From the IMG/VR virus record IMGVR_UViG_3300031521_000001: a DNA stretch of 64,000 nucleotides. One strand, 5' to 3'. A program made the position numbers and the translations under genes. The notes beneath the pieces are model-generated. The model did not search any database and was not told where the DNA came from. It saw nothing but the letters and a program-made list of their open reading frames with translations. Every line of letters starts with the position of its first letter. The stretch's first letter is position 1. This DNA comes from a virus. Below are positions 17,834-54,809 of the stretch, in pieces.

Positions 17834-17861
17834 TTTCAATCTGAAATTTGATTTGTTTTTA

Positions 17862-17971: not shown

Positions 17972-18056
17972 TTGTAGTGCAAAATTACAAAAAGTTTTTT
18001 GTTTTACCAAATATTTAATGTTAAAGTTTTGAACTTTTTCAAGTACTCTTACTTGA
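17972..18056. repeat. RB element copy 5 (complete, with hairpin)
   Basis: near-identical to copy 1. Confidence 0.8.
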
Positions 18057-18071
18057 AGTTTTTTGTTTTTT

Positions 18072-18135
18072 ATTGTAGTACAAAATTAATAAAAGTTTTT
18101 GATACTACCAAATATTTAATGTTAAAGTTTCAGTT
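18072..18135. repeat. RB element copy 6 (partial), abutting the stop of 18136..18474
   Basis: attgtagtacaaaattaataaaagtttttgatactaccaaatatttaatgttaaagttt. Confidence 0.65.
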
Positions 18136-19999: not shown

Positions 20000-20341
20000 G
20001 TTGAATTTTTTTGATGCATTAATTATATTATAAAACTCTTCTGTTGTAAATTTATTTGGAAAAAAGTATTTACTATCTCCGTCATCTTTATCACAAATAA
20101 TATATCCTTTTTTATCTCTAAGTGTTATTATATCTCCATCACCTATTTTATAAACATTATTATAAGATCTCTTACCATTATATTCTGAATATTTTAAAAT
20201 AGAATCAATAATATATATCTCACCATATTTCAAATAATTACTCTGAAGTCCAATATATATAATTTCATCACCTATTTTTAAATCATTTAAGTAATCAGGA
20301 TTATCATGTTGTACTTCATATATTTTAAAATTTGTTATCAT
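19994..20341 (-). CDS. family A-related small protein on the minus strand (MITNFKIYE...GDEIIY...KKFNL)
   Basis: C-terminal KFNL; ATGA overlap. Confidence 0.7.
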   Translation of the reverse strand: MITNFKIYEVQHDNPDYLNDLKIGDEIIYIGLQSNYLKYGEIYIIDSILKYSEYNGKRSYNNVYKIGDGDIITLRDKKGYIICDKDDGDSKYFFPNKFTTEEFYNIINASKKFNL

Positions 20342-20691
20342 ATATTAAATTTATTAGTTTGTGTTAAAAATTCTAATTTTGATTTATCATCAGATATATG
20401 AATCAATTCTTCTAATGAAAAAGACATGGCATTTTTATATTTTTTGCTATAATCTATTTCGCTATGATAAATTTGATATGATTCTAAATAATCAGGAATA
20501 TAATCAAATTGAACTATAAATCTATCCCAACGATATTTAATATCAATAATTTCTATTATCTGTCCTATATTACTTAATGTAAAACTATTTAGTTCAGTAA
20601 AATCAATACTTTCACATATAACATAATCTCCAATAGATGGTAGTATTGATGATTTTTTATTTTTTTCATATATTTTAAAATCTGTTATCAT
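20338..20691 (-). CDS. family A-related small protein (MITDFKIYE...GDYVI...TNKFNI)
   Basis: paralog. Confidence 0.7.
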   Translation of the reverse strand: MITDFKIYEKNKKSSILPSIGDYVICESIDFTELNSFTLSNIGQIIEIIDIKYRWDRFIVQFDYIPDYLESYQIYHSEIDYSKKYKNAMSFSLEELIHISDDKSKLEFLTQTNKFNI

Positions 20692-20987
20692 ACATTAAAA
20701 TTGTTGGATTTATTAATTAATTTCAGTCTATCTTCTAATATTTTTCTAACTGATGAGTATTTGTATACATCTTTTTTATCTATCCAAAAACCATCTTCAT
20801 GATAATAATCTTTAAAATCAATTTTATATTGTGATTTACTTTTATTTATTATTTTAAAAATATTATTGCTTATTTTGGTTTTATATTGAATATCATAATT
20901 TATTCCTTTAAGAACAGGTATAACATAATAATCAACAGGTATTTCTATCTGGTTATTAACAAATTCATATTTTTTTATATATTTCAT
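20688..20987 (-). CDS. family A-related small protein (MKYIKKYE...SNNFNV)
   Basis: paralog. Confidence 0.7.
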   Translation of the reverse strand: MKYIKKYEFVNNQIEIPVDYYVIPVLKGINYDIQYKTKISNNIFKIINKSKSQYKIDFKDYYHEDGFWIDKKDVYKYSSVRKILEDRLKLINKSNNFNV

Positions 20988-21093: not shown

Positions 21094-22737
21094 ATGTTAA
21101 AATATGATGATTATAATAAATTGAATGAGGCTTTCTTTCATCGTAGTAAAGATGAGTTAGAAAATCTCATACATTCATTTAAAAGCTTGATTATAAATCT
21201 AAAACAATCAATAGATAAAAAATATACATTAGATTTCTATAAAACTCAAATCAAAGAGGATTTAGAATCATATAAAATAAATATATTGAATAATTACAAT
21301 AAAAATACAATTAGTAAATTTAAAGATTTGTTTAAAGAATTTTTAAATAATGTAGATAATGACATAATTAAGCATATGAAATTAGGTAAATTTGCTAATG
21401 ATATATTAAAGATATATTCTATTAATAATTCTTTTGATATTAACATAAAGAATGTAAATAGTGTGTTTAAAGCTTATCTTGATAATGTTGATAGATATAT
21501 AGACAACACATATGATTTTTTCTACAATAAGATTGAGACTGATAAATCATATGAACCATATAATAAAATTGATATTAAAATAAATAAAGTCCCTATTGAT
21601 GAATATCAAAAAACAAAATACAAATATCAAATTGAGTTATTAAAATTACAAGAATGGATTACATACAACAATAAAAAAGTATTGATTATATTTGAAGGTA
21701 GGGATGCTGCAGGAAAAGGTTCAGCGATTAGAAATATCACAAGATTTCTAGATCCAAAGCATTTTAGAGTACAGACATTTGGTATACCTACAGAAGAAGA
21801 GAGTAATAATTGGTTTGATAGATATGAAAAATCTTTACCTAAAAATGGAGAAATTGTTTTTTTTGATAGATCTTGGTATACAAGAGGTTATGTTGAACCA
21901 GTGATGAAATATTCAACTGAAGATAAATATAATAAATTTATGAAAGAAGTCAATAACTTTGAAGATAAATTAATAGATGATGACATCATACTTATAAAAA
22001 TATGGTTCTCCATATCTCAAGATGTACAAAAAATGAGATTTGAATTAAGAAAATCTAATCCATTGAAATACTGGAAGTTTAGTAAGAATGATGAGCAAAC
22101 ATTAGACAAATGGGATGAATTTACTAAATATATAAATGAGATTTTCAAAAAAACAAATACTAAAGATTCTCCTTGGATAATAATAGATGCTGATGATGAA
22201 AATTATTCAAGATTAGAATCTTTCAATAGTATAATAAAATCAATAGAAAAAGATAAATCAAACATCAAAGAGGGTGGAATAAAAGTAATATTTGAAGATT
22301 TAGATGGACCATTAATTCCATATGATAAAAATTCAGATACCGACTATCATAAATTTTTTAATGATCCAGAAAAATGGAGTAAGACTGCTATGAGCAATTT
22401 AAACAATATTATTGAAAAGACAGAAGCAAAAGTAGTATTATCTTCTTCATATAGAGATGATAAACCATTAAGCGAAATAGAAAAGATGATGAAAACTGCT
22501 GGATTTAAATATAAAATATATGACGTTGTTCCAAATGACAAATCTAAAAAACGTGGATCTGATATAAAAGATTGGTTAAAGAATAATAAATCAGTTAGTA
22601 ATTTTATTATTATTGACGATAATAAGCATGACTTATATGAAGTATTTAGCAAAAAACACATTGTTAAAACTACTCATGAATTAGGAATAACAGATGATAT
22701 TAAAGATGAAGCTATTGATAAATTAAATACTAAATGA
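21094..22737 (+). CDS. ppk2: polyphosphate kinase 2 (PPK2) with an N-terminal extension and a C-terminal HAD-like phosphatase domain
   Basis: Walker A FEGRDAAGKGS and PPK2 motif FFDRSWY; C-terminal HAD motifs FEDLDGPL (I), VVLSSS (II), IIIDDNKHD (IV). Confidence 0.8.
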   Translation: MLKYDDYNKLNEAFFHRSKDELENLIHSFKSLIINLKQSIDKKYTLDFYKTQIKEDLESYKINILNNYNKNTISKFKDLFKEFLNNVDNDIIKHMKLGKFANDILKIYSINNSFDINIKNVNSVFKAYLDNVDRYIDNTYDFFYNKIETDKSYEPYNKIDIKINKVPIDEYQKTKYKYQIELLKLQEWITYNNKKVLIIFEGRDAAGKGSAIRNITRFLDPKHFRVQTFGIPTEEESNNWFDRYEKSLPKNGEIVFFDRSWYTRGYVEPVMKYSTEDKYNKFMKEVNNFEDKLIDDDIILIKIWFSISQDVQKMRFELRKSNPLKYWKFSKNDEQTLDKWDEFTKYINEIFKKTNTKDSPWIIIDADDENYSRLESFNSIIKSIEKDKSNIKEGGIKVIFEDLDGPLIPYDKNSDTDYHKFFNDPEKWSKTAMSNLNNIIEKTEAKVVLSSSYRDDKPLSEIEKMMKTAGFKYKIYDVVPNDKSKKRGSDIKDWLKNNKSVSNFIIIDDNKHDLYEVFSKKHIVKTTHELGITDDIKDEAIDKLNTK

Positions 22738-22741: not shown

Positions 22742-23149
22742 ATGAAATATTTAAAAAAATATGAAATGTTAAACAAATTAGACACATCAGATAATCCTAT
22801 ATTTATAGAATTTATGATTAATTTCATAACATCTTTAGATTATGACTTAACCACAAATTACAATAAAAAATACTCTAGAAATGAGATATTTTTTTATAAC
22901 AAAGATATAAATTCTGAGGGTTTAAAATTTTGTATTGAAATAACAAATGATGAATTAATTTTTAAAAAATACCATAATAATTTTAAGATTATTGAAGAAT
23001 ATTTAGAAACTATCAATGGATTAAATTTAATAAATATTGATCATCACATATACAACTTTAAGATATCAGGAAATACTCTAGATATCGAAGAACAGATAAC
23101 AAAAAAGAATTTTGATATGTTTAGAGAAGCAAATAAATTTAATTTATGA
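22742..23149 (+). CDS. family A protein (MKYLKKYE...ANKFNL)
   Basis: array IV. Confidence 0.75.
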   Translation: MKYLKKYEMLNKLDTSDNPIFIEFMINFITSLDYDLTTNYNKKYSRNEIFFYNKDINSEGLKFCIEITNDELIFKKYHNNFKIIEEYLETINGLNLINIDHHIYNFKISGNTLDIEEQITKKNFDMFREANKFNL

Positions 23150-23487
23150 AATATTTAAAAAAGTTTGAATCTAAAGAAGTAGATTTATTTAATGCTATTG
23201 TAAATGACAACACAAAAAGAGTTGAATATTTAATTAGACTTAATGCTGATATAAACATTCAAGATGCTGAAGGTAGAACTCCATTATTTTATGCAGCAAA
23301 TCATGATTTTATGAGTATTGTTAATATACTTATTGAAGCAGGAGCGGATTGGAATATTATTAACAACAAAGGATATGATTTTACATATTTATTAAGTGAT
23401 AAACAATTTGATTATATTATGAAAAAATATCCTGATGAATATAAAGAATATTTAATGAAAAAAACAGCAAACAAATTTAACTTATGA
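23146..23487 (+). CDS. ankyrin-repeat protein in family A frame
   Basis: NADINIQDAEGRTPLFYAANHDFMSIVNILIEAGADWN. Confidence 0.8.
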   Translation: MKYLKKFESKEVDLFNAIVNDNTKRVEYLIRLNADINIQDAEGRTPLFYAANHDFMSIVNILIEAGADWNIINNKGYDFTYLLSDKQFDYIMKKYPDEYKEYLMKKTANKFNL

Positions 23488-23915
23488 ACCATTTAAAAAT
23501 ATATGATAATTATAAAGATAAAATGAATTCAAAGAACAAATTCAATAATATGATAAATGAGTATATACCAGGATATTACATGATATATAAATCTAATACT
23601 TATCATTGGAAGCAACATAGATACAATGAATATATAGTATTATGTAGAATTATAAATCCAGAAGTTTTTGATGAAGTGGATCTAAGATTAAACATAGATA
23701 TTCTATCTTATTTTTGTGAATTAGAACAACATGAATTAAGGGAAGATGAAAAAATAAAGACTGGAAAACAAATAATAAATCCAAATCATTCAACGTTTGA
23801 AAGATTATTTTTGTCATCGTCATTAAAAACATCTCAAGATAAATTTGAAGAATTGAAAGAAACTACATATTATCAATGGGAATTAAATAAAGTCACAGAT
23901 AAATTTAACTTATGA
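23484..23915 (+). CDS. family A-related protein (MNHLKIYDN...TDKFNL)
   Basis: array IV. Confidence 0.7.
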   Translation: MNHLKIYDNYKDKMNSKNKFNNMINEYIPGYYMIYKSNTYHWKQHRYNEYIVLCRIINPEVFDEVDLRLNIDILSYFCELEQHELREDEKIKTGKQIINPNHSTFERLFLSSSLKTSQDKFEELKETTYYQWELNKVTDKFNL

Positions 23916-24298
23916 AAACATTCAATCAATACAATGAATCTATAAAAAATAAACATTTTCCTATATATTTTAGAAGATATTATGAATCAGGTAGATATAA
24001 AATATCAGATATATATTACGACATTGAACAAGCAAATAAATATAGTATTGAATATGTTCTATTTAATAATACCACTAAAGGAGATGAGTTCTTTTACTTA
24101 TATTTATTTCCATGTAATGAAAATGAATCTAAAATTATTAGTTCTGAGTTAATAGGTATGTTTAATCTATCAAGTATATTTAATGAAGACTTAACAACAG
24201 AAGAAAATATAGAATTAATAAAAACATCAAAAAATGCGAATATTATAAATTTAGAAGATGTAAATTTAATAATAAATTCAAATAAATTTAATATATGA
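23912..24298 (+). CDS. family A variant, N-term MKTFNQYNE (T4 CTS-like), C-term SNKFNI
   Basis: array IV. Confidence 0.75.
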   Translation: MKTFNQYNESIKNKHFPIYFRRYYESGRYKISDIYYDIEQANKYSIEYVLFNNTTKGDEFFYLYLFPCNENESKIISSELIGMFNLSSIFNEDLTTEENIELIKTSKNANIINLEDVNLIINSNKFNI

Positions 24299-24726
24299 AA
24301 ACATTTATACAGTTCAATGAAACTGAAAATTATGGAGAACCAATGTACAGTAATACAAATAGAATAACTCTTAACCTTTATTCTTATAATGACGAAGAAA
24401 ATGATTTTCCTCTTTTAGAACGAGATATCAAAAAATTAGAAGAAAATAATATTTATTATATTATAATTAGTACAACAGACAATTATATTAACTCTACACA
24501 ATTTCAAACAATGTTTAAAATTTATGCATTACCAAAAAATAAAGAACAGAGAGATATAACTTATTATAATATGAATTTTTCTTATAATACTAAAATTAAC
24601 ATAGAATACAATGGTGAAAATTTAGATGAAGTTTTAGATGCAATTAAAAAAAGAAATAAAAATTTTTCAATCATAAATAAAGAAGACTTATATGTTATTA
24701 TAAATTCAAATAAATTTAATATATGA
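24295..24726 (+). CDS. family A variant, N-term MKTFIQFNE (CTS-like), C-term SNKFNI
   Basis: paralog of 23912..24298. Confidence 0.75.
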   Translation: MKTFIQFNETENYGEPMYSNTNRITLNLYSYNDEENDFPLLERDIKKLEENNIYYIIISTTDNYINSTQFQTMFKIYALPKNKEQRDITYYNMNFSYNTKINIEYNGENLDEVLDAIKKRNKNFSIINKEDLYVIINSNKFNI

Positions 24727-25082
24727 AAACATATCAACAATTTAATGAAATGAGCAATGTTGGATGTACTATATTTTTCAAAGTATATTTTAAATTTGAA
24801 AATGTGTATAAACAAATTGAGATATTAGATGAAAATAGAATAGATTATGATATATCTTATCATAATAAATTCATTAAAATAGATGCTTATGCTTATTCTA
24901 TAAGTGAGTATAATTTTCTTATATCAATTGAATTCAAAATAAATAAAAAATCACAAGAACTAATAAATCCAAATATGTCACTTGATAAAATTAGAAGTAT
25001 TGTAAAATCAGACAAAGGTTGGACGCCAACAAGTAAAGAAGAATTACCATACATTAATGATATAAATAAATTCAACTTATGA
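24723..25082 (+). CDS. family A variant, N-term MKTYQQFNE (closest to T4 MKTYQEFIAE), C-term INKFNL
   Basis: array IV. Confidence 0.75.
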   Translation: MKTYQQFNEMSNVGCTIFFKVYFKFENVYKQIEILDENRIDYDISYHNKFIKIDAYAYSISEYNFLISIEFKINKKSQELINPNMSLDKIRSIVKSDKGWTPTSKEELPYINDINKFNL

Positions 25083-25585
25083 AATATATAAAAAGATTTG
25101 AAAGTATAATAACAGAATTGAATTACTCAAGTAAAGGATTAACTTCTTTACCTGAGTTGCCTGATACATTAAAGAATTTGGGATGTCATCATAATAAATT
25201 AAGATATCTACCAGAATTACCAACTACATTAGAAGAATTGTTTTGTGGCGATAATGAGTTAAAAAAATTGCCAACTTTACCAAACACAATAACAAATTTA
25301 ATGATTCATCATAATGATTTGACAGAATTGCCAGATCTACCAGATTCATTGATAAATTTTTCATGTGGGCATAATAATTTAACTGAAATACCAAAATTAC
25401 CAAATAATTTAGTATATTTTTTATGTGATAATAATAATTTATCTGAATTACCAGAAATGCCAGAAACTGTAACTCAATTTAGTTGTAAGTATAATAATTT
25501 ACCATATGAAGATTTGAATGGATATTGGGATTGGTTTTATGATAGAAATCCAGAAAGAAAACAAGCAAAAAAATTCAACTTATGA
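25079..25585 (+). CDS. leucine-rich-repeat protein in family A frame (MKYIKRFE...AKKFNL)
   Basis: about 7 tandem LRRs of 20-22 aa (LPELPDTLKNLGCHHNKLRYLPELPTTLEELFCGDNELKKLPTLPNTITNL...). Confidence 0.8.
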   Translation: MKYIKRFESIITELNYSSKGLTSLPELPDTLKNLGCHHNKLRYLPELPTTLEELFCGDNELKKLPTLPNTITNLMIHHNDLTELPDLPDSLINFSCGHNNLTEIPKLPNNLVYFLCDNNNLSELPEMPETVTQFSCKYNNLPYEDLNGYWDWFYDRNPERKQAKKFNL

Positions 25586-26097
25586 GATATTTAAAAAAAT
25601 TTGAAAAATATAATGCATCTTTAGATTTAAATTATATTTTAGAAGATGATGTATATAGTGATTCAGATGCAATAAAATTATTAAAAAAAGTGAAATATGC
25701 TATTGACAATGATTGTGTTATTGATAATATTAATATACATTGGATGGAAAGAACTCCTTTAATTACATGCGCTGTTTTAGACTGTCATATAAAAACCCAG
25801 TCTAAATATAGAAATATATTTGAGCAAATAGCAAAAGAACTAATTAATTCAGGAGCTAATATAAATCATATAGATAAAGATAACAGAAGTGCTTTAATAT
25901 GGGCTACAGATAGAGGACATTTTGATGTAATGGAACTATTAATTGAAAATGGCGCAGATTGGAATATTATGGATGTATTCCATCATGAATTTCATGAATA
26001 TTTGAGTGATGAACATTTTGAAAAAATTATTCATAAATATCCAGAACAATATGAATTGTATAACATGAAAAACAACACGAACAAATTCAATTTATGA
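25582..26097 (+). CDS. ankyrin-repeat protein in family A frame
   Basis: ELINSGANINHIDKDNRSALIWATDRGHFDVMELLIENGADWN. Confidence 0.8.
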   Translation: MRYLKKFEKYNASLDLNYILEDDVYSDSDAIKLLKKVKYAIDNDCVIDNINIHWMERTPLITCAVLDCHIKTQSKYRNIFEQIAKELINSGANINHIDKDNRSALIWATDRGHFDVMELLIENGADWNIMDVFHHEFHEYLSDEHFEKIIHKYPEQYELYNMKNNTNKFNL

Positions 26098-26585
26098 AAC
26101 ATATAAAAACATATACTCAGAAAGAATTGGATGATAATTTGTTGAAATATTCAGCAAAACAGGCATCTTTGCAAAAAGTAAGAGAATTGATAACAGATGG
26201 AGCTAACGTTAATTGTTTTGATCGTATCAGATATAACACGCCATTAATTAACGCATCACAACAACTAAATTATAGTACAATTAAATTGTTAATAGAAAAT
26301 GGTGCTGATATAAATTTAGTAAATAAAAACAATAAAAATTGTATATTTTATATTGTTAATCAAAACACATATACTTATACTAAATATAAAAATAAAATTA
26401 ATAATATAATTGATTTATTAATTTCATCTGGAATAAATTTAAACAATAAAAATAAAAGTGATGTTGATATTTTTGATAATATTCAAGAATCAAATCCTTT
26501 TATTCTTCAATATATAATAGATAATTATCCAGAAGAATACAAAGAATATTTAATGAAAAAAACTGCAAACAAATTTAACTTATGA
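26094..26585 (+). CDS. ankyrin-repeat protein in family A frame
   Basis: LITDGANVNCFD...NTPLINASQQLNYSTIKLLIENGADINLVNKNN. Confidence 0.8.
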   Translation: MKHIKTYTQKELDDNLLKYSAKQASLQKVRELITDGANVNCFDRIRYNTPLINASQQLNYSTIKLLIENGADINLVNKNNKNCIFYIVNQNTYTYTKYKNKINNIIDLLISSGINLNNKNKSDVDIFDNIQESNPFILQYIIDNYPEEYKEYLMKKTANKFNL

Positions 26586-28290: not shown

Positions 28291-29013
28291 TTATTTCTGA
28301 AATGATGGTTTCAGCCACATTTTTGTGTGTTTAAAAATATAATCTCTTAATTCTGGAAATTCATTCAGCATCAAAATTGTTTTTAATGTATCATACTTAA
28401 AACACTTTGTAAGTTCATCTTGAATTCTTTCATTAGAAACTACTTTCATTTTTGATTCATAATCATAATTTTTGATAGCGATTTCAATATCATCAGTCAT
28501 TCTGAATCCTTTTGTGATACAAAAACGGACGCATCTCAAAATCCGTAGGCTGTCCTCATCAAATGTAAGTTCACATGGTCTTGGAGTTCTAAGAATTCCC
28601 ATTTTTAAATCTTTCACACCATCAAACAAGTCAATCAAAGTACCATTCTCATCAACAGCCATAGCATTTAATGTGAAATCACGTCTTATTAAATCATCTT
28701 CTAGTGTACCAAGTTCTAAAATTGGACGTCTTGTACCTTCATAATAGCCAATTTCCTTTCTTGCCATTACAAAATCTGCTGTCAATCCTTCATGCTTATG
28801 TCCTTTTGGAAATTTTGCTTTGATAGTAAAACATCTTGGTGTTGAATTGTATATAGTGTAACCATTTTTACGTAGCCATAACTCCATATCCATAAATCCA
28901 GATTCAACTGATTGATTCATATCATCTAATACAAAAGTAAAGTCAATGTCTTTACAATCAACTCCTAAAATACGGTCACGAACCGCTCCTCCCACTTCAT
29001 AAATTTTTGGCAT
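28291..29013 (-). CDS. nucleotidyltransferase, tRNA CCA-adding/poly(A) polymerase head domain (Pol-beta superfamily)
   Basis: motifs GGAVRDRILG...DIDF and RRDFTLNAM. Confidence 0.8.
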   Translation of the reverse strand: MPKIYEVGGAVRDRILGVDCKDIDFTFVLDDMNQSVESGFMDMELWLRKNGYTIYNSTPRCFTIKAKFPKGHKHEGLTADFVMARKEIGYYEGTRRPILELGTLEDDLIRRDFTLNAMAVDENGTLIDLFDGVKDLKMGILRTPRPCELTFDEDSLRILRCVRFCITKGFRMTDDIEIAIKNYDYESKMKVVSNERIQDELTKCFKYDTLKTILMLNEFPELRDYIFKHTKMWLKPSFQK

Positions 29014-30666: not shown

Positions 30667-31605
30667 TTAGAAAAAATTGGAAGCGTCAACATATTTGAAT
30701 CCACATCTTTTAGCGAATGTTTTATCACTTGTCAAATCTCCAACCATTGTACATTGTGATGAGTCAAGTTTATATTTTTCAATAAAATCTACACCTAATC
30801 CTACACCTGGTTTTCTACAATAACAAATTATTGGAGGTACTGAATGTCCACAATATTTATAATCAATATTAACTCCTAACATTTCATTTGTTTTTTCAAA
30901 ACAAGCTATTGCAGTTTCATGAGTTAATAAGCCTTTTGCTATACCGCTTTGATTTGAAACCCCTAGTAGTATATAACCTTGTTTCTGTAATTCTAAAAGT
31001 TTTTCTGTTCTACCAGGAATAATTTCTATATCATTCACATCAGTAGGGAAATGTCCTCCACTTTTAGTTACTCTTAAAGTACCGTCATAATCAAATAAAA
31101 TAGCTTTATTTGTATATTCTGATGGTTTACGTTTAAAATCAATTTTTTCTATATCATCAATTCCTTCTGATAGTTCTGGTGCTTCAAAATGTTTATTAAT
31201 TTTATAAAGTGCTGCAACAGGAAACATATGTGGATCATTAACTTTAGAATAATCACTTAAATTTGTAAACAACCTACCTTGAGTTTTTATCATTCTGGTA
31301 ACAGCATTGAACATACAATCTTCAATTTTTGTTGTGAAATAAAGACACAATACATAGTAGCCATATTTTTTTGCTAATGCAATAGCATCAGCCCTAGATA
31401 ACTTAGTAGAATATGTACCATCTAAGATAATATCTACTCCATCTATCATCAAGTTTTCAAGTTTTTTGTTGAGTGAACTTAATGTACCACCTTCAATATC
31501 TCTTGAAAGTAATGTACACTTATAATCAACCCATTTTTCAACAATACTTGATTTTCCTGCTGCTGGTAATCCACAAGTTATAACTAATTTTTTATCTTTT
31601 ATCAT
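30667..31605 (-). CDS. pnkp: polynucleotide 5'-kinase / 3'-phosphatase (T4 Pnkp-like)
   Basis: N-terminal P-loop ITCGLPAAGKSS; C-terminal HAD phosphatase motifs ILFDYDGTL (DxDGT), LLGVSNQSG, VGDLTSD. Confidence 0.85.
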   Translation of the reverse strand: MIKDKKLVITCGLPAAGKSSIVEKWVDYKCTLLSRDIEGGTLSSLNKKLENLMIDGVDIILDGTYSTKLSRADAIALAKKYGYYVLCLYFTTKIEDCMFNAVTRMIKTQGRLFTNLSDYSKVNDPHMFPVAALYKINKHFEAPELSEGIDDIEKIDFKRKPSEYTNKAILFDYDGTLRVTKSGGHFPTDVNDIEIIPGRTEKLLELQKQGYILLGVSNQSGIAKGLLTHETAIACFEKTNEMLGVNIDYKYCGHSVPPIICYCRKPGVGLGVDFIEKYKLDSSQCTMVGDLTSDKTFAKRCGFKYVDASNFF

Positions 31606-35112: not shown

Positions 35113-35742
35113 TTATACATCAAATCCATTTATATGAGTATTATTAATCAAGAAATCATCAATTTTTTTCATATTTTTAAGTGGATAAATTACAACATCA
35201 TATTCAACTCCAACCACGTTATTCTTTTTTCCTATTTTATATCTTTTATATTGTATTTCAAGTCCTGACATTTCTTTTTCTAAATCTTCTATTGAATAAT
35301 CAGTAGATAAAAAATGAACAACATATAATTTAGAATGATGAAAAGTATCAAATATTTTCTCAAACTTAAATAATACAATCATAACTATTAGCACAACTAA
35401 TAGAACGAATAGAGCTAATGAATAATGTTGATATCCTATGCACATACCTATTGCTGATGCCATCCAAATGATAGCGGCAGAAGTTATACCACGAACATTT
35501 CCTCCTTCTTTAAAAACAACCCCAGCACCAATGAAGCCAATTCCTGTTACAATATTTGAAGCTATTCTATCGCCACTAATCAAATTAACTGATAGTATAG
35601 TAAACAAGCATGAACTAACGCAAATCAATATCATTGTTTTGAAACCTGCAGGTTTACCATGAAATCCTCTTTCTATTCCTAATATAGATCCAGCAGCTAA
35701 TGATGCTAATATTTGTATTATATTTTCGTATTCTGGTAGCAT
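35113..35742 (-). CDS. mgtC: MgtC/SapB-family membrane protein
   Basis: ILGIERGFHGKPAGFKTMILI...GIGFIGAGVVF... matches the MgtC N-terminal signature (GxER..K.AGxRT); hydrophobic core plus a C-terminal soluble domain. Confidence 0.8.
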   Translation of the reverse strand: MLPEYENIIQILASLAAGSILGIERGFHGKPAGFKTMILICVSSCLFTILSVNLISGDRIASNIVTGIGFIGAGVVFKEGGNVRGITSAAIIWMASAIGMCIGYQHYSLALFVLLVVLIVMIVLFKFEKIFDTFHHSKLYVVHFLSTDYSIEDLEKEMSGLEIQYKRYKIGKKNNVVGVEYDVVIYPLKNMKKIDDFLINNTHINGFDV

Positions 35743-36835: not shown

Positions 36836-37159
36836 ATGAAATATATAAAGAAATTTGAAAATACTGAAGATAAACCAAAAGTTGGTGATTATGTATTGAT
36901 ATCAATTGATAATGATGAAGAAAATGATTTTTACTCTAATAATCCAGGACAAATTATTAAATTTTTTACTCTACAAAAATATAGGTTTACAGTTATGATA
37001 TCATATGGTAAAAACATTCCTGATAACATGAAAAATATATTATTACTTAATAAAAGATGTGGTTATTATAAAATTTTTGACTATGAAGATATCTTCATAT
37101 TTTCTAAAAATAAAGAAGATTTAAAACTAAAAATAGCATCAAATAAATTTAACTTATGA
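36836..37159 (+). CDS. family A small protein (MKYIKKFE...GDYVL...ASNKFNL)
   Basis: array V. Confidence 0.8.
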   Translation: MKYIKKFENTEDKPKVGDYVLISIDNDEENDFYSNNPGQIIKFFTLQKYRFTVMISYGKNIPDNMKNILLLNKRCGYYKIFDYEDIFIFSKNKEDLKLKIASNKFNL

Positions 37160-37473
37160 AATATATAAAATCATTTGAAAAAATAAATAATACAATTCAT
37201 TATAAAATTCCAGCATATCCGTTAGAAGTATATTTTATTGCAATAACTAAAATTGGTATGACACAAGATGAAATATCTCATTGGATTAATAATAAATACG
37301 CTCAATATTGGAATAACTCACATTTTAAATTTATATATTTAAATAACACATACAATGATTATACTAAAAAATATCAATGGAGTTGGACAAATAACATAAA
37401 TAAAGCAAATGAGACTGTAATAGAAATAACTGTTGAAGATTATGAAATTGATGCAAACAAATTTAACATATGA
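37156..37473 (+). CDS. family A frame with divergent core (MKYIKSFE...DANKFNI)
   Basis: array V. Confidence 0.75.
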   Translation: MKYIKSFEKINNTIHYKIPAYPLEVYFIAITKIGMTQDEISHWINNKYAQYWNNSHFKFIYLNNTYNDYTKKYQWSWTNNINKANETVIEITVEDYEIDANKFNI

Positions 37474-37793
37474 AATACATTAAGAAATTTGAAATGATTG
37501 AAGATAGCCCAAAAGTTGGAGATTATGTCTTAATGAATATTAGTTATGATAAAAATTCAGATTTTTATCTTAATTATCCAGGTAAAATAATTAAATTTTT
37601 TACAATAGGAAAATATCGTCAAGGTGTAAATATATCATATGGAGATAATATTCCTGATAATATGACAGAAATATTAGGGTATACAAAAAAACATGGATAT
37701 TATAAAAATTTTCAATATAAAGAGATATATGCATTTTCAAAAAATAAAGAAGATTTAAAAATTAAAATAAGCGCAAATAAATTCAATATATGA
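37470..37793 (+). CDS. family A small protein
   Basis: paralog of 36836 (about 60% identity). Confidence 0.8.
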   Translation: MKYIKKFEMIEDSPKVGDYVLMNISYDKNSDFYLNYPGKIIKFFTIGKYRQGVNISYGDNIPDNMTEILGYTKKHGYYKNFQYKEIYAFSKNKEDLKIKISANKFNI

Positions 37794-38158
37794 AATACTT
37801 GAAAAAATTTGAAGATAATATAAATGAGCCTGAAGTTGGAGATTATGTATCTATAATAGGTAAAAAATTTATTAATCATTTAAGAAGATACTATGATGAT
37901 AAAGATATTGTTAATTTGAAAAAATATCTTCTTAATTTTCCTGGAAAAATTCATAGTACCTTTAATGATAAAAGAATAGGTGTGACATATGGTTTTGATG
38001 TTCCAGAAGATGTAAAAAAATTTTTACAATATGATAAACCTTATGGAGGTTACAATAAAATATTTAATTATGAAGATATAAATGCATTTGGAAAAACAAT
38101 AGAAGAATTAAAATATAAAATAGAACTTAAAAATAACATTAACAAATTTAATATATGA
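37790..38158 (+). CDS. family A small protein
   Basis: array V. Confidence 0.8.
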   Translation: MKYLKKFEDNINEPEVGDYVSIIGKKFINHLRRYYDDKDIVNLKKYLLNFPGKIHSTFNDKRIGVTYGFDVPEDVKKFLQYDKPYGGYNKIFNYEDINAFGKTIEELKYKIELKNNINKFNI

Positions 38159-38466
38159 AATACATAAAATCATTCAAAAATAAAAATTTAGAATATGAGG
38201 TAGGAGATTGTGTTAAAATAAAAATAATTCCTGATTATGTAAGTCATATAGAAAGAATTGAAGATAATTTATTTGTAAAAATAATAGAAATGAATTTTTT
38301 GACGAATCATAATAATAGTGATATTGATAATATATTTATTGTGTTTGAAACATTAATCACTAAACAAAAAATATCTGGTAATATATATTTCATTTCTAAA
38401 AAAATGACTGAATCAGAAATAGATTATTGTAAGATTAAATCAGAAACAAATAAATTCAACTTATGA
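38155..38466 (+). CDS. family A small protein (GDCVKI variant)
   Basis: array V. Confidence 0.75.
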   Translation: MKYIKSFKNKNLEYEVGDCVKIKIIPDYVSHIERIEDNLFVKIIEMNFLTNHNNSDIDNIFIVFETLITKQKISGNIYFISKKMTESEIDYCKIKSETNKFNL

Positions 38467-38756
38467 AATACTTAAAAAAATTTGAAGATATTGAAAATAC
38501 TCCAGAAATTGGTGATTACATTATTCCAAATGTAGAAACATTGAATCATCTTATTGACAATAAAATTAATAATCATGTATATCAAATAATAGGAACAAAA
38601 GAAAGAAATATGGGTGGTTTTTTATATATCATTAAAGTAAAATTGAATGATAATCAATTAGATGACTGGTATTTATCCAATTATGAAATAATGCATTTAT
38701 CAAAAAACAAAGAAGATTTAGAAGTATTATTACAATCAAATAAATTTAACATATGA
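38463..38756 (+). CDS. family A small protein
   Basis: array V. Confidence 0.8.
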   Translation: MKYLKKFEDIENTPEIGDYIIPNVETLNHLIDNKINNHVYQIIGTKERNMGGFLYIIKVKLNDNQLDDWYLSNYEIMHLSKNKEDLEVLLQSNKFNI

Positions 38757-39034
38757 AATATATAAAAACATTTGAAAGAATTAATTATTATATACCAGAA
38801 AAAGGTGATTATGTTATTTGTGGTGGTAATAATACATGGGATAGTAAATTCGCAAAATTTATATCAAACAACATTGGAGTATTAATAAATCATTTACCTA
38901 ATCAATATAGAATAGATTATGATTATATTGATCCATATTCAATATATTTAACAAATAGAAAAGATATATTATATTGGTCAAGTGATAAGAAAGAATTAGA
39001 AGAAATTCTACAAGCAAACAAATTTAATTTATGA
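38753..39034 (+). CDS. family A small protein
   Basis: array V. Confidence 0.8.
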   Translation: MKYIKTFERINYYIPEKGDYVICGGNNTWDSKFAKFISNNIGVLINHLPNQYRIDYDYIDPYSIYLTNRKDILYWSSDKKELEEILQANKFNL

Positions 39035-39342
39035 AACACATTAAAACATTTGAAAATAATTATGAATATGCAGAAGTTGGAGATTATGTTATTATTAATG
39101 TGAATAATCTAAAATTCAGCAATGATAATATAGGTAATATTTACAAGAAAATGTTAACTGATAATGTATATAAAATAATTGACAGTAAAATAGTATCAGG
39201 AAACAGACAAATATATCTAATTGATTTATATGACGATGAACATATTAACGGATATTATATTGATAGTAAGAATGTATTAGCATTTGATAAAGATAAAGAA
39301 TTTGTTAAATGTAAAAATGATATAAACAAATATAATTTATAA
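39031..39342 (+). CDS. family A small protein (C-term INKYNL)
   Basis: array V. Confidence 0.8.
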   Translation: MKHIKTFENNYEYAEVGDYVIINVNNLKFSNDNIGNIYKKMLTDNVYKIIDSKIVSGNRQIYLIDLYDDEHINGYYIDSKNVLAFDKDKEFVKCKNDINKYNL

Positions 39343-39718: not shown

Positions 39719-40612
39719 ATGAAAGAATTAGAATTAAAAAAATTAGTACATTCAACTATAGACAACACTATCAAGTATATTTTTTATACTGAAGATAAAT
39801 TGATAGTTGAATTTTCTTATATCAATAAGAATGATGGTAAAAATATTATTTGCTGTCCAGTTTCAACATTTTGTAATATAGGCTGCAAATTTTGTCACAC
39901 AGCAGAATATATTGGTAAAATTAAAAATAGAAACCTAACATCATTAGAGATTTCAAATGGAGTTGATTATATTTATAATGATTTGAAACTATCTGAAAAC
40001 CCAAAAACTTTATTGATAAGCTCCATGGGTATTGGTGAAATTGTAACCAATGTTGATGAAGTTGTAGAATCAATGATAAATATTCAAAATACTTATCTTA
40101 AAGATATATATGTTAGATTTGCATTTGCAACATCTTTACCTGAATCTCACAAAATCGAGTTTTTCAAATTGACAAATAAAATTGCAGAGAATAATTTACC
40201 TGTTAAGTTGCATCTATCATTACATTATACAACAGATGAATTAAGAAGTCAATGGATGCCAATGTCAATGAAAATTGAACCAACTATTGCAGCAGTTGAT
40301 TACTATAAAGCAACTACAGGAAATGATGTTGAAATACATTATGCACTAATAGAGAATGTTAATGATAAATCAGAAGATGCTATGAGATTAAGCAATCTTA
40401 TTAAAGGTAAAGGTTATAATGTTAAATTTTTATTCTATAACAAGAAAGATAATATAGACGCTGAACCATCTAACATTTCTAAAATTAGAAACTTTGTTGA
40501 TATATTTAGTCTTGTAGGAATAAAACATGAATACTATGTACCTCCTGGACTCACAATTGGAGCATCTTGTGGTCAACTATCTATAAATGAGTATATTAAA
40601 ATAAAAAAATAA
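39719..40612 (+). CDS. radical SAM enzyme of the RlmN/Cfr family (RNA adenine C2/C8 methyltransferase), N-terminally truncated relative to bacterial RlmN
   Basis: CNIGCKFCHTAE (Cx3Cx2C, compare RlmN CALECKFCSTAQ) and C-terminal GASCGQL (compare the RlmN Cys355 motif AACGQL). Confidence 0.75.
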   Translation: MKELELKKLVHSTIDNTIKYIFYTEDKLIVEFSYINKNDGKNIICCPVSTFCNIGCKFCHTAEYIGKIKNRNLTSLEISNGVDYIYNDLKLSENPKTLLISSMGIGEIVTNVDEVVESMINIQNTYLKDIYVRFAFATSLPESHKIEFFKLTNKIAENNLPVKLHLSLHYTTDELRSQWMPMSMKIEPTIAAVDYYKATTGNDVEIHYALIENVNDKSEDAMRLSNLIKGKGYNVKFLFYNKKDNIDAEPSNISKIRNFVDIFSLVGIKHEYYVPPGLTIGASCGQLSINEYIKIKK

Positions 40613-40630: not shown

Positions 40631-42091
40631 ATGAATAATAGAAACTTCATATTACATATAAAAGAAGATAAATACAAAAAATTATTAATTGATTATATTT
40701 TTAAATATCGTCAATTCGAAAACTTATATCTTATAATATTAAAAGAGAATAAGGATGATTTTAATTTTTTATCTAATTATAAAGTAATGAGAGCTATTCT
40801 TGCGGAAACTACTGGAGGTAAAGATAAAAATGAAGTTGATTTTATTAGATATAAATATAAAGAAAATGATAAAATGAATGAATTAATTATTTTATCAAAA
40901 AGTCTTAAAATACATAATATTTCAGATTTGATTAAAAGAGTAAAATCAAATTATAAATCTTTTTTCACTAAAATAAGAAATAAAGTTAAAGCCAACGTTC
41001 CATGTACAAAAAAGTTATCACTATTGACTAAATATTCCATTCTAGTTGATAAAATTGCATTTTCAATAAAGAAAAAGGATAAAATTGGAATCAACTTGAG
41101 TAATAAAATGTTTTATATTGATTTTAAGCATAAAATATTACCAGATAATATACAAAGTCTTAAAGTCGTTTACTCAAATAAAGAAGTTTATTTACATTTT
41201 AATTACTTGACTGAAGATATATTAAACACAAATAATTCATTAATAAAAGAAGCAGGAATAGATGTAGGTATTAATAATTTATTAGCTATATTTATTGATG
41301 ATAAAACATCTAAATCAATAATTGTTGACGGAAATATTTTTAAAACTTATAATTCAAAATTCAACAGGTTCTTGTCTAAACTTAATGAATCAATTTCTAA
41401 AGAAGTCATAGAATTTAAACTCAGTAATACTGGTACTAAATATGCAGTTAAGTGGACTAAAAGAGGAATAGAATTACGTAAATATAAGACATTTATTTAT
41501 GAAAAAAGAAATCGTTATTTTTATGATCAATTTCATAAAGTTAGTAAACGTGTGGTTGAATTATTGAAATTAAATTCTGTAAACAATCTAACAATTTCAT
41601 ACAATCTAGCTAGATTAAAATATAATGGTGATTGTAAATTAAATAAAAAAGTAAAACAAAATTTCATACAAATTCCTTTCATAAAACTACTAAATTACAT
41701 TCAATATAAAAGTAATGAAGTTGGAATTCAAGTAGATATAATTGATGAATCTTACACATCAAAGTGCTCATGTATTAGTGATAATGTGAATGATCCGTTA
41801 GATAAAGAACTAAATGGTGTTCGTTCTAAAAGAGATTTATTTACTGATAAACTAATAAATAAAACAATGAATGCTGATTTGAACGGTGCTGTCAATCATA
41901 TAAAAAAATCAAACAAAAATAATAATTTTTCTTGGTTGGAAAATTATATGTTTAAACTGTGTAATCCAGTTAAAATTAAATGCGACTACGATTTCTTTAA
42001 ATATTTAAAGAATAGTGTGCTCTGGCAAGGAATTTCATCAAAAGAAGTTCAAACGTCACTTCATGTACAAAATTGTACAAGTTTAAGTTGA
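40631..42091 (+). mobile_element. tnpB: IS200/IS605-family (IS1341-like) TnpB RNA-guided nuclease homolog; no tnpA
   Basis: RuvC-I GIDVGINNL, RuvC-II RVVELL, hallmark ESYTSKCSC, RuvC-III NADLNGAVNHI; second CxxC of the zinc finger is missing. Confidence 0.85.
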
Positions 42092-54489: not shown

Positions 54490-54578
54490 GAAGAATGACT
54501 GGATTCGAACCAGTAATAATTTATAATTTTTTACAAATGCTTTTTTGGCTACTAGTTTACCGATTAACTTACATTCTT
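54490..54578 (-). tRNA. tRNA-like gene, 89 nt: perfect 7-bp acceptor stem, D-arm AGTT-AATCGGTAA-AACT, T-arm ACTGG-TTCGAAT-CCAGT. The anticodon region is about 15-20 nt too long (intron or long variable arm); anticodon unresolved
   Basis: reverse complement of 54490-54578 folds into acceptor, D and T arms with canonical GG and T-Psi-C-like motifs. Confidence 0.55.
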
Positions 54579-54709: not shown

Positions 54710-54809
54710 TAGTTAAGGCGGGACTCGAACCCGCATGAGAAATTAATCTCTGAGATACCTCATTAATAGGATTTTAATCCTAAACGTCTAACCATTTCGT
54801 CACCTAACT
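54710..54809 (-). tRNA. tRNA-like gene, 100 nt: acceptor AGTTAGG/CTTAACT (one G-U pair), U8, D-loop AAATGGTTAGA, T-arm GCGGG-TTCGAGT-CCCGC. About 26 extra nt in the anticodon/variable region (stem-loops aggat-taaaa-atcct and atgag-N21-ctcat), probably an intron
   Basis: strong acceptor and T-arm pairing read from the reverse complement. Confidence 0.5.

What the first reader, a model, noticed from the sequence alone, without database searches (positions are those of the whole stretch)
39719..40612. Truncated RlmN/Cfr-type radical-SAM RNA methyltransferase
Both hallmark cysteine motifs of the RlmN/Cfr family are present: the radical-SAM cluster CNIGCKFCHTAE, and the C-terminal catalytic Cys in GASCGQL that forms the methyl-Cys intermediate. 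The N-terminal accessory domain of bacterial RlmN is absent (297 aa versus about 380). RlmN methylates A2503 of 23S rRNA and A37 of tRNAs. Cfr at the same site confers multi-antibiotic resistance. A viral copy could remodel host ribosomes or tRNAs, protect viral tRNAs, or confer ribosome-level resistance to a host translation-targeting toxin.
Basis: partly seen in the sequence, partly recalled or inferred. Interest (0 to 1): 0.6.

Follow-up and report, generated by a model that had tools for sequence, protein, structure and literature searches.

The report
Short phage RlmN-like radical-SAM methylase
A huge bacteriophage carries an intact, stripped-down relative of the RNA-methylating enzymes RlmN and Cfr that keeps their catalytic residues but lacks their RNA-gripping parts, so it probably methylates something other than the ribosome, perhaps a DNA building block.

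Summary
ORF 39719-40612 (+) encodes a 297-aa protein with the radical-SAM CX3CX2C cluster and equivalents of RlmN Glu105, Cys118 and Cys355. Its confident model superposes on RlmN (TM 0.82).

"Truncated" is misleading. Over 100 diverged relatives share the same 285-300 aa architecture, the gene is under purifying selection (dN/dS 0.14), and the clade sits outside a well-supported RlmN+Cfr clade. It occurs in huge tailed phages, on contigs up to 711 kb.

The RNA-remodelling reading is not supported. The HhH2 RNA-binding domain is absent. The Arg residues invariant in canonical enzymes that contact RNA are replaced by other invariant residues, and N-terminally truncated Cfr does not confer resistance in vivo.

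Four large extensions in relatives have recognisable domains: dCMP deaminase (twice), a nucleoside deoxyribosyltransferase-like domain and an HD phosphohydrolase. A dUTPase triple fusion also occurs. Three other extensions have no recognisable domain. Close phage homologues often sit beside dUTPase, dCMP deaminase, an NMP kinase or ribonucleotide reductase.

Best reading (about 0.5): an RlmN-type C-methylase acting on a deoxynucleotide or DNA. An RNA target remains possible (about 0.3). No experiment or paper addresses this family.

The parts
39719..40612 (+). Complete gene for a 297-aa short-form class-A radical-SAM methylase (RlmN/Cfr-like, without the HhH2 N-terminal domain)
   Evidence: ORF and translation. 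TIGR00048 E=1.4e-38. PDB RlmN E=1.6e-18. AF2 pLDDT 94.5. Foldseek RlmN TMq 0.82. dN/dS 0.14 against the homologue in L015.
39728..39853 (+). Beta-sheet extension (residues 4-45, four strands). In RlmN/Cfr it links the N-terminal domain to the core. It carries Glu31 (39809-39811, = RlmN E105) and Cys45 (39851-39853, = RlmN C118, the cross-link-resolving Cys).
   Evidence: Strands E4-11, E18-24, E29-35 and E41-45 in the model. E31 and C45 are invariant columns with RlmN and Cfr. Among 124 short forms, E is kept in 120 and C in 115.
39872..39895 (+). Radical-SAM [4Fe-4S] cluster motif C52-x3-C56-x2-C59 (CNIGCKFC)
   Evidence: Translation. Invariant in alignments A1 and A3. Kept in 123 of 124 short forms.
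40025..40039 (+). MGIGE (residues 103-107), the SAM-binding GxGE motif shared with RlmN/Cfr
   Evidence: M103, G104 and G106 invariant and E107 nearly invariant across phage forms, RlmN and Cfr.
40205..40537 (+). Remodelled substrate pocket. The short-form-specific invariant residues K163, H165, E205, K236, E271 and Y273 occupy the positions where Cfr and RlmN contact the target adenosine and its flanking nucleotides.
   Evidence: Column-by-column mapping onto Cfr/RlmN contact residues. The contacts are taken from PMC13001441. All six residues are invariant in 116 clade members.
40568..40570 (+). Cys284 codon, equivalent to RlmN C355 / Cfr C338 (the methyl-carrier cysteine) within GASCGQL
   Evidence: Sequence. 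Aligned with C355. Kept in 121 of 124 short forms.
40631..42091 (+). Adjacent but not part of the feature: a TnpB (IS605 OrfB / Cas12f-like) gene inserted just downstream
   Evidence: Pfam OrfB_IS605 and Cas12f1-like_TNB; NCBIfam guided_TnpB. In the related phage contig L015 the flanking genes are 56 nt apart, so about 1.47 kb is an insertion.

Best explanation
The gene encodes a functional class-A radical-SAM methylase that works chemically like RlmN/Cfr. By inference from RlmN/Cfr, a [4Fe-4S] cluster (Cys52/56/59) binds SAM; one SAM methylates Cys284; a second SAM yields a 5'-deoxyadenosyl radical that turns the S-methyl into a methylene radical; this adds to an sp2 carbon of a nucleobase; and Cys45 with Glu31 resolves the covalent adduct to leave a C-methyl group.

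It belongs to a distinct, ancient short-form clade that never had, or long ago lost, the HhH2 RNA-recognition domain and has rebuilt the substrate pocket. Its substrate is therefore probably not 23S rRNA A2503 or tRNA A37. It is more likely a component of DNA-precursor metabolism: most likely a free deoxynucleotide, less likely DNA itself. The phage would then make a C-methylated base for its own DNA or nucleotide pool.

Shown: homology, fold, conservation of the catalytic residues, loss of the RNA-contact elements, purifying selection, phage distribution, and the fusion and neighbour pattern.

Inferred: the chemistry, by homology, and the substrate class, by association and pocket changes. 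The exact substrate and carbon are unknown.
For: Catalytic machinery:
- E31, C45, C52/56/59, GxGE and C284 are invariant with RlmN and Cfr and kept in about 93-99% of 124 short forms.
- The fold matches RlmN at TMq 0.82.
- dN/dS is 0.14.

Distinct clade:
- N-terminal length is bimodal.
- The canonical RlmN+Cfr clade contains no short form and is recovered in 38 of 40 bootstraps.
- Scores are far below the RlmN and Cfr cut-offs.

Loss of RNA recognition:
- There is no HhH2 domain in the protein or elsewhere in the window.
- RlmN R206, R344 and N307 are invariant or nearly so in 15 canonical sequences and contact RNA (PMC13001441; PMC5130265). They are V/I, Y/F (120 of 124) and K (114 of 124) in short forms.
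- New invariant E205 and E271 sit where the flanking nucleotides bind in Cfr.
- Cfr truncated at its N-terminus gives no resistance (PMC8752094).
- RlmN needs extended RNA structure and does not modify an anticodon stem-loop 17-mer.

Link to deoxynucleotide metabolism:
- Among seven family representatives with large extra regions, the four with recognisable domains carry dCMP deaminase (P0191 N-terminal, P0212 C-terminal), Nuc_deoxyrib_tr (P0249) and HD+HD_assoc (P0267).
- The dCMP-deaminase fusion recurs in at least 40 clusters, and a triple fusion adds dUTPase (P0302).
- Phage homologues 40-56% identical to the window protein have, as adjacent same-strand genes, dUTPase (L016), dCMP deaminase (L026, L045), an NMP-kinase-like gene (L029) and ribonucleotide reductase (L010). 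L052 (30% identical) has dCMP deaminase two genes upstream.
- dCMP deaminase is the most frequent Pfam family within two genes.
- The chromosomal sister clade in gut Bacilli has a LysR regulator upstream in 14 of 19 loci and MazG-like PRA-PH in 3. One locus sits next to a 5-hmdU DNA kinase.
- Tunturi_5 gp170 and P0249 lie in DNA replication modules.
Against: - No member of the short-form family has been studied, and every characterised class-A radical-SAM methylase acts on RNA.
- The window copy itself has no informative neighbours. It lies between a small-ORF paralogue array and a TnpB insertion.
- The window carries RNA-repair genes (a PNKP-like gene, a CCA-adding-like gene, PPK2-HAD_SAK_2) and tRNAs.
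- Translation-related genes also occur near homologues: IF3, PTH2, Thg1, tRNA_bind and RNA ligases. No partner gene is conserved.
- Enrichment for nucleotide genes at positions +/-1 (about 8%) barely exceeds that at +/-4 (about 6%).
- The strongest fusion evidence comes from clades only about 33-35% identical to the window protein.
- Ser101, at the position that H-bonds the 2'-OH in Cfr, is invariant. New Lys residues and Glu side chains could also serve a different RNA.
- The pocket argument rests on alignment to published contacts. It does not rest on a model with ligand.
Confidence: 0.5

Rival explanations
1. One reading: an RNA methyltransferase that installs m2A or m8A on host or phage tRNA (A37) or on 23S rRNA A2503. 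RNA recognition would be achieved without the HhH2 domain, through the rebuilt pocket or an unidentified partner. The function would be to tune translation or to protect tRNA or ribosomes from host toxins.
For: - The only characterised relatives are RlmN and Cfr, which are also the best sequence and fold matches.
- The beta-sheet extension and K19 are conserved with the RNA enzymes.
- Huge phages carrying the gene also carry translation and RNA-repair genes. The window has a PNKP-like gene, a CCA-adding-like gene, PPK2-HAD_SAK_2 and two tRNAs.
- Homologue neighbourhoods include IF3, PTH2, Thg1, tRNA_bind and RNA ligases. L010 has T4 Rnl1 and a TROVE protein.
- Ser101 occupies the Cfr position that binds the ribose 2'-OH.
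Against: - The HhH2 domain that anchors rRNA and tRNA is absent family-wide, and no split copy exists in the window.
- RNA-contact residues R206, R344 and N307 are replaced, and acidic E205 and E271 line the site of the flanking nucleotides.
- N-terminally truncated Cfr does not confer resistance.
- RlmN requires extended RNA structure.
- The recognisable fusion partners are all deoxynucleotide enzymes. None is an RNA-binding or translation domain.
- The protein lies outside the RlmN+Cfr clade.
Confidence: 0.3
2. A radical-SAM methylase for a different class of substrate: a protein side chain, a cofactor, or a secondary metabolite or nucleotide-derived signal. The RlmN scaffold would be reused for chemistry unrelated to nucleic-acid bases.
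For: - The pocket is extensively remodelled with new invariant K, H, E and Y residues.
- In Vibrio phages the gene follows PRPP synthetase and a nicotinate phosphoribosyltransferase-family gene, which are NAD-salvage genes.
- The bacterial sister clade is under a LysR-type regulator, as small-molecule metabolic genes often are.
Against: - The two-cysteine methyl-transfer apparatus is kept intact. It is known only for amidine-type sp2 carbons of adenine.
- Fusion partners all handle deoxynucleotides specifically.
- There is no hit to any defence or anti-defence model.
Confidence: 0.12
3. A decaying or inactive remnant of a captured bacterial rlmN gene: a true truncation with no function.
For: It is shorter than RlmN by about 85 residues. 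It sits next to a TnpB insertion, in a region of small paralogous ORFs.
Against: - dN/dS is 0.14.
- All catalytic residues are intact, and 47 columns are invariant across 116 relatives.
- The same length recurs in more than 100 diverged representatives.
- The model is confident and compact.
- In a related genome the insertion site of TnpB lies outside the gene.
Confidence: 0.03

Closest known systems
RlmN (dual-specificity 23S rRNA A2503 / tRNA A37 C2-methyltransferase; E. coli P36979; PDB 3RFA, 5HR7; NCBIfam TIGR00048)
   Same: - The same radical-SAM core and beta-sheet extension (TMq 0.82).
- The same CX3CX2C motif, GxGE motif, catalytic Glu, resolving Cys and methyl-carrier Cys.
- The same two-SAM ping-pong chemistry is therefore expected.
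   Different: - No HhH2 N-terminal domain (about 75 residues) and a shortened C-terminal tail.
- 25-28% identity, and 132.8 bits against the 290-bit cut-off.
- R206, R344 and N307 are replaced, and there are short-form-specific motifs (VEIHY, EYYxPPG, SLHYT) and insertions.
- It lies outside the RlmN+Cfr clade.
- It is encoded by phages, and the window clade was not found in 185,579 cellular species genomes.
Cfr (23S rRNA A2503 C8-methyltransferase; PhLOPSA resistance; PDB 9P0P; NCBIfam NF000424 / TIGR04432)
   Same: The same class-A mechanism and cysteines, with a similar fold (TMq 0.67).
   Different: - 88 bits against the 530-bit cut-off.
- Residues shown by mutagenesis to matter for Cfr (Y97, W101, S103, S151, Q329, F330) are K37, K41, I43, L99, P275 and P276 here.
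- The Cfr alpha5/beta6 loop extension and the N-terminal domain are absent.
- There is no basis for predicting antibiotic resistance.
Uncharacterised phage 'Fe-S-cluster redox domain-containing' / COG0820-like proteins (PHROG 27142). Examples: Tunturiibacter phage Tunturi_5 gp170, Pseudomonas phage 201phi2-1 gp434 (B3FJU2), UniProt A0A6J5RTK8.
   Same: - The same short architecture and fold: BFVD TM 0.90 and 0.85.
- PHROG 27142 at E=1e-16.
- Tunturi_5 gp170 is 37% identical over 99% of the query and has the same pocket motifs.
- This is the family to which the window protein actually belongs.
   Different: These entries carry only automatic names and no functional data. The phiKZ-like members are very distant (about 21% identity).
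Phage deoxynucleotide-modifying enzymes of the thymidylate-synthase family (dCMP/dUMP hydroxymethylases, dCMP methylase). This is a functional analogy only, recalled from general knowledge.
   Same: They work on dNMPs beside dCMP deaminase, dUTPase, dNMP kinase and ribonucleotide reductase. That matches the fusion and neighbour context seen for the short-form family.
   Different: The fold and cofactor are unrelated (folate-dependent, no Fe-S cluster). No sequence similarity exists. The analogy is inferred from context and was not tested.

Membership tests
Class-A radical-SAM methylases (RlmN/Cfr superfamily, defined by mechanism) | CX3CX2C [4Fe-4S]/SAM motif in a partial TIM-barrel radical-SAM core | tested here: met
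   C52/C56/C59. AF2 model with Foldseek RlmN TMq 0.80-0.83.
Class-A radical-SAM methylases (RlmN/Cfr superfamily, defined by mechanism) | Methyl-carrier Cys in the C-terminal loop (RlmN C355), resolving Cys (C118) and catalytic Glu (E105) | tested here: met
   C284, C45 and E31 fall in invariant columns with RlmN, Cfr, Cfr(C) and Cfr(D). They are kept in 121, 115 and 120 of 124 short forms.
Class-A radical-SAM methylases (RlmN/Cfr superfamily, defined by mechanism) | Methyl transfer through an S-methylcysteine and a covalent enzyme-substrate adduct | not testable with these tools
   Requires biochemistry. Inferred from the conserved residues only.
RlmN (TIGR00048, EC 2.1.1.192) | Whole-protein score at or above the curated cut-off | tested here: not met
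   132.8 bits against a cut-off of 290.
RlmN (TIGR00048, EC 2.1.1.192) | N-terminal HhH2 RNA-binding domain | tested here: not met
   The alignment starts at RlmN residue 88. There are 30 residues before the catalytic Glu, against 104 in E. coli RlmN. A profile of the domain finds nothing in the window.
RlmN (TIGR00048, EC 2.1.1.192) | RNA-contact residues R206, R344 and N307, invariant or nearly so in canonical enzymes | tested here: not met
   V132, Y273 and K236 in the window protein. Short forms have V/I, Y/F (120 of 124) and K (114 of 124).
RlmN (TIGR00048, EC 2.1.1.192) | Placement inside the RlmN clade | tested here: not met
   NJ tree of 139 sequences. The canonical RlmN+Cfr clade excludes all short forms in 38 of 40 bootstraps.
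RlmN (TIGR00048, EC 2.1.1.192) | m2A formation at 23S A2503 and tRNA A37 | not testable with these tools
   No experiment is available. Indirect evidence argues against it.
Cfr (NF000424, TIGR04432) | Score at or above the curated cut-off | tested here: not met
   88.4 against 530 bits, and 78.1 against 550 bits.
Cfr (NF000424, TIGR04432) | Cfr-specific substrate-site residues needed for C8 methylation and resistance (Y97, W101, S103, S151, Q329, F330), and the alpha5/beta6 loop extension | tested here: not met
   K37, K41, I43, L99, P275 and P276 at those columns (residues from PMC12887959). The loop extension is absent in alignment A1.
Phage short-form RlmN-like family (PHROG 27142 / COG0820-like) | About 285-300 aa, no N-terminal domain, and the motifs VEIHY, K-F-L-x-Y-N and E-Y-x-x-P-P-G before the SCG cysteine | tested here: met
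   PHROG 27142 at E=1e-16. The motifs are invariant in 116 relatives and shared with Tunturi_5 gp170. BFVD TM 0.90.

The most novel reading that the evidence does not exclude
The short-form proteins could be the first class-A radical-SAM methylases that act on free deoxynucleotides. That would give phages, and some reduced-genome gut Bacilli, a folate-independent, SAM-driven route to a C-methylated DNA precursor. The product could be a new methylated purine base for phage DNA. Given the repeated fusion to the two dUMP-producing enzymes (dCMP deaminase and dUTPase), it could instead be a third, radical-SAM type of thymidylate synthesis.
Probability: 0.3. Interest if true: 0.9.

Novelty: new variant of a known kind. 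Interest (0 to 1): 0.62.

Why it matters
RlmN and Cfr are the only studied enzymes that methylate unactivated sp2 carbons through a protein-bound methylene radical. Both are known only as RNA enzymes, and Cfr is a major antibiotic-resistance determinant.

This gene belongs to a large, conserved family that is annotated only automatically. It is common in huge and jumbo phages, including cultured ones such as Tunturi_5 and 201phi2-1. A sister clade occurs in the chromosomes of gut Bacilli. The family keeps the chemistry of RlmN/Cfr but has discarded the RNA-recognition apparatus.

If its substrate is a deoxynucleotide or DNA, three things follow. The reaction class extends beyond RNA. An unrecognised DNA modification or nucleotide-supply pathway in phages comes into view. 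And database labels such as "23S rRNA (adenine2503-C2)-methyltransferase" or "Cfr" on these genes, which could be misread as resistance genes in viromes, would need correcting.

If the substrate turns out to be RNA after all, the family would show how a minimal RlmN recognises RNA without its accessory domain.

Tried and rejected
- **Giant eukaryotic virus origin** (23% GC, tandem paralogues). Rejected: start/stop overlaps typical of phage operons, PHROG hits, a large terminase next to a homologue, and IMG/VR phage contigs.
- **A conserved partner gene supplying RNA binding.** All-against-all clustering of 427 neighbour ORFs from 37 loci found none.
- **A split-off HhH2 domain elsewhere in the window.** None found.
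- **A functional link to the adjacent TnpB.** Rejected, because TnpB is a 1.47-kb insertion absent from the related contig L015.
- **A defence or anti-defence component.** No PADLOC hit.
- **The C-terminal 210-aa domain of the 505-aa fusions in the window's own clade** (P0017, P0019, P0027, P0036). It has no Pfam or PDB match and only four stand-alone homologues, all hypothetical, so it is uninformative. I ran no further search on it.
- **Simple replacement of thymidylate synthase.** Weakened, because Tunturi_5 encodes dUTPase, dCMP deaminase and an annotated thymidylate synthase as well as gp170. I could not check the other genomes.
- **Promoter and terminator scan around the gene.** Uninformative in this AT-rich DNA: 35 sites against 37 expected.
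- **Literature.** Six successful full-text searches found no study of phage RlmN-like enzymes, nor any of 2-methyladenine in phage DNA.
- **Unavailable resources.** The AFDB fold library and the Schwalm 2016 paper.
Full report
**1. The observation**

The ORF at 39719-40612 (+) is real and complete: ATG start, 297 codons, then a stop. Its translation contains FCNIGCKFCHTAEY and IGASCGQLS, and the Cys284 codon is TGT at 40568-40570.

The similarity to RlmN/Cfr is far beyond chance:
- NCBIfam TIGR00048 gives E=1.4e-38 and CfrAB gives 5.5e-25.
- PDB RlmN 6fz6 gives E=1.6e-18. E. coli RlmN 3rf9 gives 4.6e-16, aligning query 13-288 to RlmN 88-359.
- An AlphaFold2 model built on 116 relatives has mean pLDDT 94.5.
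- The model's best solved-structure matches are RlmN entries at TMq 0.80-0.83, followed by Cfr at 0.67. Other radical-SAM enzymes reach at most 0.60.

I aligned the protein with E. coli and Paenibacillus RlmN and with Cfr, Cfr(C) and Cfr(D), fetched from annotated plasmid-collection records. The alignment shows invariant columns for E31 (RlmN E105), C45 (C118), C52/C56/C59, M103-G104-x-G106, S167-x-H169, V214-N215-D216 and C284 (C355).

About 75 N-terminal residues of RlmN, the HhH2 domain, have no counterpart. Upstream lie 46 nt of spacer and then a gene on the other strand. An HMM of the canonical N-terminal domain finds nothing in any frame of the window (best E=0.5).

**2. What genome this is**

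The window is 20-27% G+C. It holds about 146 short, tightly packed ORFs, many with overlapping stop and start codons, including a 13-member family of roughly 105-aa paralogues.

The exact protein occurs on 14 contigs, six of them 0.2-1 Mb. Members of its 90% cluster sit on contigs up to 711 kb.

A 57%-identical homologue lies one gene downstream of a T4-type large terminase (L012). Another lies among T4 RNA ligase 1, ribonucleotide reductase and a TROVE protein on a 338-kb contig (L010). IMG/VR holds 68 loci. This is a huge tailed phage, not a giant eukaryotic virus.

**3. It is a family, not a truncation**

A word-indexed search found 388 relatives. The best 120 are 51-99% identical, and nearly all are 285-300 aa. 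An exhaustive search of 1.84 billion cluster representatives found 80 with E below 1e-30 and 1246 with E below 1e-10. Short proteins that align from about residue 5 dominate down to E of about 1e-22, where canonical-length RlmN/Cfr proteins begin to appear.

In 139 aligned sequences, the number of residues before the catalytic Glu is bimodal: 20-49 in 118 sequences and 80-119 in 14.

A neighbour-joining tree puts all 15 canonical-length sequences, including E. coli RlmN and the three Cfr types, in one clade with no short form inside it. That split appears in 38 of 40 bootstraps. The window protein sits in a separate, large short-form clade.

Against the homologue in contig L015 (about 89% amino-acid and 87.7% nucleotide identity), dN=0.057 and dS=0.41, so dN/dS is 0.14. 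Across 116 clade members, 47 columns are invariant. The gene is functional and old.

A scan of 185,579 cellular species genomes with clade-specific peptide patterns found no relative. Within the limits of a pattern scan, the window's clade therefore looks restricted to phages.

Cultured phages carry relatives:
- Tunturiibacter phage Tunturi_5 gp170 (37% identity).
- Several Vibrio, Xanthomonas/Stenotrophomonas and Salmonella phages (about 27%).
- At about 21%, the phiKZ-like phages 201phi2-1 (gp434), Psa21, Phabio and D6, and Brevundimonas/Caulobacter jumbo phages.

In the BFVD library the model matches an uncultured-phage "COG0820" protein at TM 0.90 and 201phi2-1 B3FJU2 at 0.85. PHROG 27142, "Fe-S-cluster redox domain-containing", is the matching phage family.

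**4. What is kept and what is lost**

The complete class-A methyl-transfer apparatus is kept (section 1). In 124 short forms, E31 is kept in 120, C45 in 115, the cluster cysteines in 123 and C284 in 121.

The RNA-recognition apparatus is lost. The Cfr-rRNA cryo-EM preprint shows the HhH2 domain anchoring the H90/H91/H92 junction through backbone contacts. It lists the core-domain contacts to A2503 and its neighbours (PMC13001441). Mapping those positions column by column gives:

| RlmN / Cfr residue | Role or canonical conservation | Short forms |
|---|---|---|
| R206 / R184 | Invariant in 15 of 15 canonical; binds tRNA G29 and rRNA U2580/C2579 | V or I |
| R344 / R327 | Invariant in 15 of 15; binds the ribose of the target A | Y or F in 120 of 124 |
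| N307 / N288 | Binds the phosphate of the target A | K in 114 of 124 |
| Cfr Y252 and T325 | Hold the flanking G2502 and U2504 | Invariant E205 and E271 |
| Cfr N208 and T210 | Contact U2504 | K163 and H165 |

The six Cfr residues whose change to the RlmN residue abolishes resistance (PMC12887959) match neither the Cfr type nor the RlmN type here.

Two experimental results bear on this. N-terminally truncated Cfr made from internal start codons does not contribute to resistance (PMC8752094). RlmN does not modify an isolated anticodon stem-loop and needs extended tRNA structure (PMC5130265).

**5. Clues to the real substrate**

I looked at family representatives with large extra regions. The four with recognisable extra domains all carry deoxynucleotide enzymes:
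- P0191: an N-terminal DCTD-type dCMP deaminase.
- P0212: a C-terminal dCMP deaminase.
- P0249: a nucleoside 2-deoxyribosyltransferase-like domain.
- P0267: HD plus HD_assoc, which resembles a dNTP triphosphohydrolase.

Three further extensions have no recognisable domain: P0027, P0155 and P0160. All the fused proteins keep the catalytic cysteines. The deaminase fusion is common, with at least 40 clusters and some with hundreds of members. P0302 and P0303 add a dUTPase as a third domain.

That clade is chromosomal in gut "Bacilli"/"Tenericutes" MAGs. A LysR-type regulator lies immediately upstream in 14 of 19 loci, and a MazG-like PRA-PH gene is nearby in three. One locus lies beside a second radical-SAM gene and a 5-hmdU DNA kinase. 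P0191 and P0249 are on phage-like contigs.

In the phage loci nearer to the window protein, the adjacent same-strand genes are:
- dUTPase (L016, 56% identity to the window protein).
- dCMP deaminase (L026 at 53% and L045 at 40%). In L052 (30%) it lies two genes upstream.
- An NMP-kinase-like protein (L029, 49%).
- The ribonucleotide reductase large subunit (L010, 52%).

dCMP deaminase is the most frequent Pfam family within two genes of the target. Tunturi_5 gp170 lies among SSB, RuvC, UvsX, SbcD and DnaB genes.

The picture is not one-sided. IF3, PTH2, Thg1, tRNA-binding and RNA-ligase genes also occur nearby, and no single partner is conserved. The window copy has no informative neighbours. 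Upstream is the paralogue array. Downstream is a TnpB gene that is a 1.47-kb insertion relative to L015. Elsewhere the window encodes RNA-repair-type genes.

**6. Interpretation**

Two things are shown. The protein is an intact class-A radical-SAM methylase of a distinct short-form clade, and its substrate-recognition elements differ systematically from those of RlmN and Cfr.

The rest is inferred. It most likely uses RlmN chemistry to C-methylate a nucleobase in a deoxynucleotide, or less likely in DNA, as part of phage DNA-precursor metabolism. I put this at about 0.5. Another small-molecule or protein substrate is at about 0.12, and an inactive relic at about 0.03.

One attractive version is that the enzyme makes dTMP from the dUMP supplied by its fusion partners. 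It is weakened, though not excluded, by Tunturi_5, which also encodes an annotated thymidylate synthase next to dUTPase and dCMP deaminase.

**7. Novelty**

Six successful full-text searches found no study of phage or short-form RlmN-like enzymes, nor any of 2-methyladenine in phage DNA. Source databases label these genes "23S rRNA (adenine2503-C2)-methyltransferase", "Cfr" or "Fe-S-cluster redox domain".

I class it as a new variant of a known kind: known chemistry and fold, a new architecture, and probably a new class of substrate. The window gene is one ordinary member of that uncharacterised family. Cultured phages exist in which the question can be settled.

Noticed in passing
window 14729-15164 (-), within the ORF-poor stretch at about 14300-18100: A full-length GOLLD RNA (Rfam RF02032): 243 bits against a gathering score of 150, covering model positions 1-416. 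It is a large structured non-coding RNA carried by this huge phage.
   Followed up: partly
window 40631-42091 (+): A TnpB / IS605 OrfB (Cas12f-like) gene directly downstream of the methylase. It is a 1.47-kb insertion relative to the related phage contig IMGVR_UViG_3300029983_000009 (L015), where the flanking genes are 56 nt apart. No TnpA was seen, and no guide RNA was searched for.
   Followed up: partly
window 348-1667, 11859-12173, 20338-20987, 36836-39342: A 13-member family of roughly 105-aa paralogues (N-terminus MKYIKKFE..., C-terminus ...NKFNI/L) in tandem arrays with overlapping stop and start codons. There are no Pfam hits. A second family of 6 members lies at 11428-13990 and 23146-26585.
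   Followed up: no
window 21094-22737 (+), 28291-29013 (-), 30667-31605 (-): An RNA-repair-type gene set: a PPK2 polyphosphate kinase fused to a HAD_SAK_2 domain, a short PolyA_pol/CCA-adding-type nucleotidyltransferase, and a kinase-phosphatase resembling polynucleotide kinase-phosphatase.
   Followed up: partly
window 54490-54578 (-) and 54710-54809 (-): Two unusually long tRNA-like genes (89 and 100 nt) by Rfam. ARAGORN calls only the first, as tRNA-Phe with the odd anticodon AAA.
   Followed up: no
window 6020-8605 (+) and 35113-35742 (-): A run of a microbial-type PARG (poly-ADP-ribose glycohydrolase-like) gene, an HD-domain protein and an NAD-dependent epimerase/dehydratase. Separately, an MgtC-like protein.
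   Followed up: no
L094-L119 (gut Bacilli/'Tenericutes' MAG chromosomes), L085: The sister clade of the short-form methylase is a chromosomal gene in reduced-genome gut bacteria. It is often fused to dCMP deaminase (and dUTPase in L097 / P0302). A LysR-type regulator lies immediately upstream in 14 of 19 loci.
   Followed up: partly
L083/L084 10001-13459: A short-form methylase followed by a radical-SAM/SPASM protein and a 5-hmdU DNA kinase (HMUDK_hel) homologue, next to a KilA-N protein. This may be a DNA hypermodification island.
   Followed up: no
L089 17-511 and 3188-5455: The stand-alone homologue of the unknown C-terminal domain of the 505-aa fusions lies on a contig with an adenylosuccinate-synthetase-like (PurA/PurZ-type) fragment and RtcB.
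   Followed up: no
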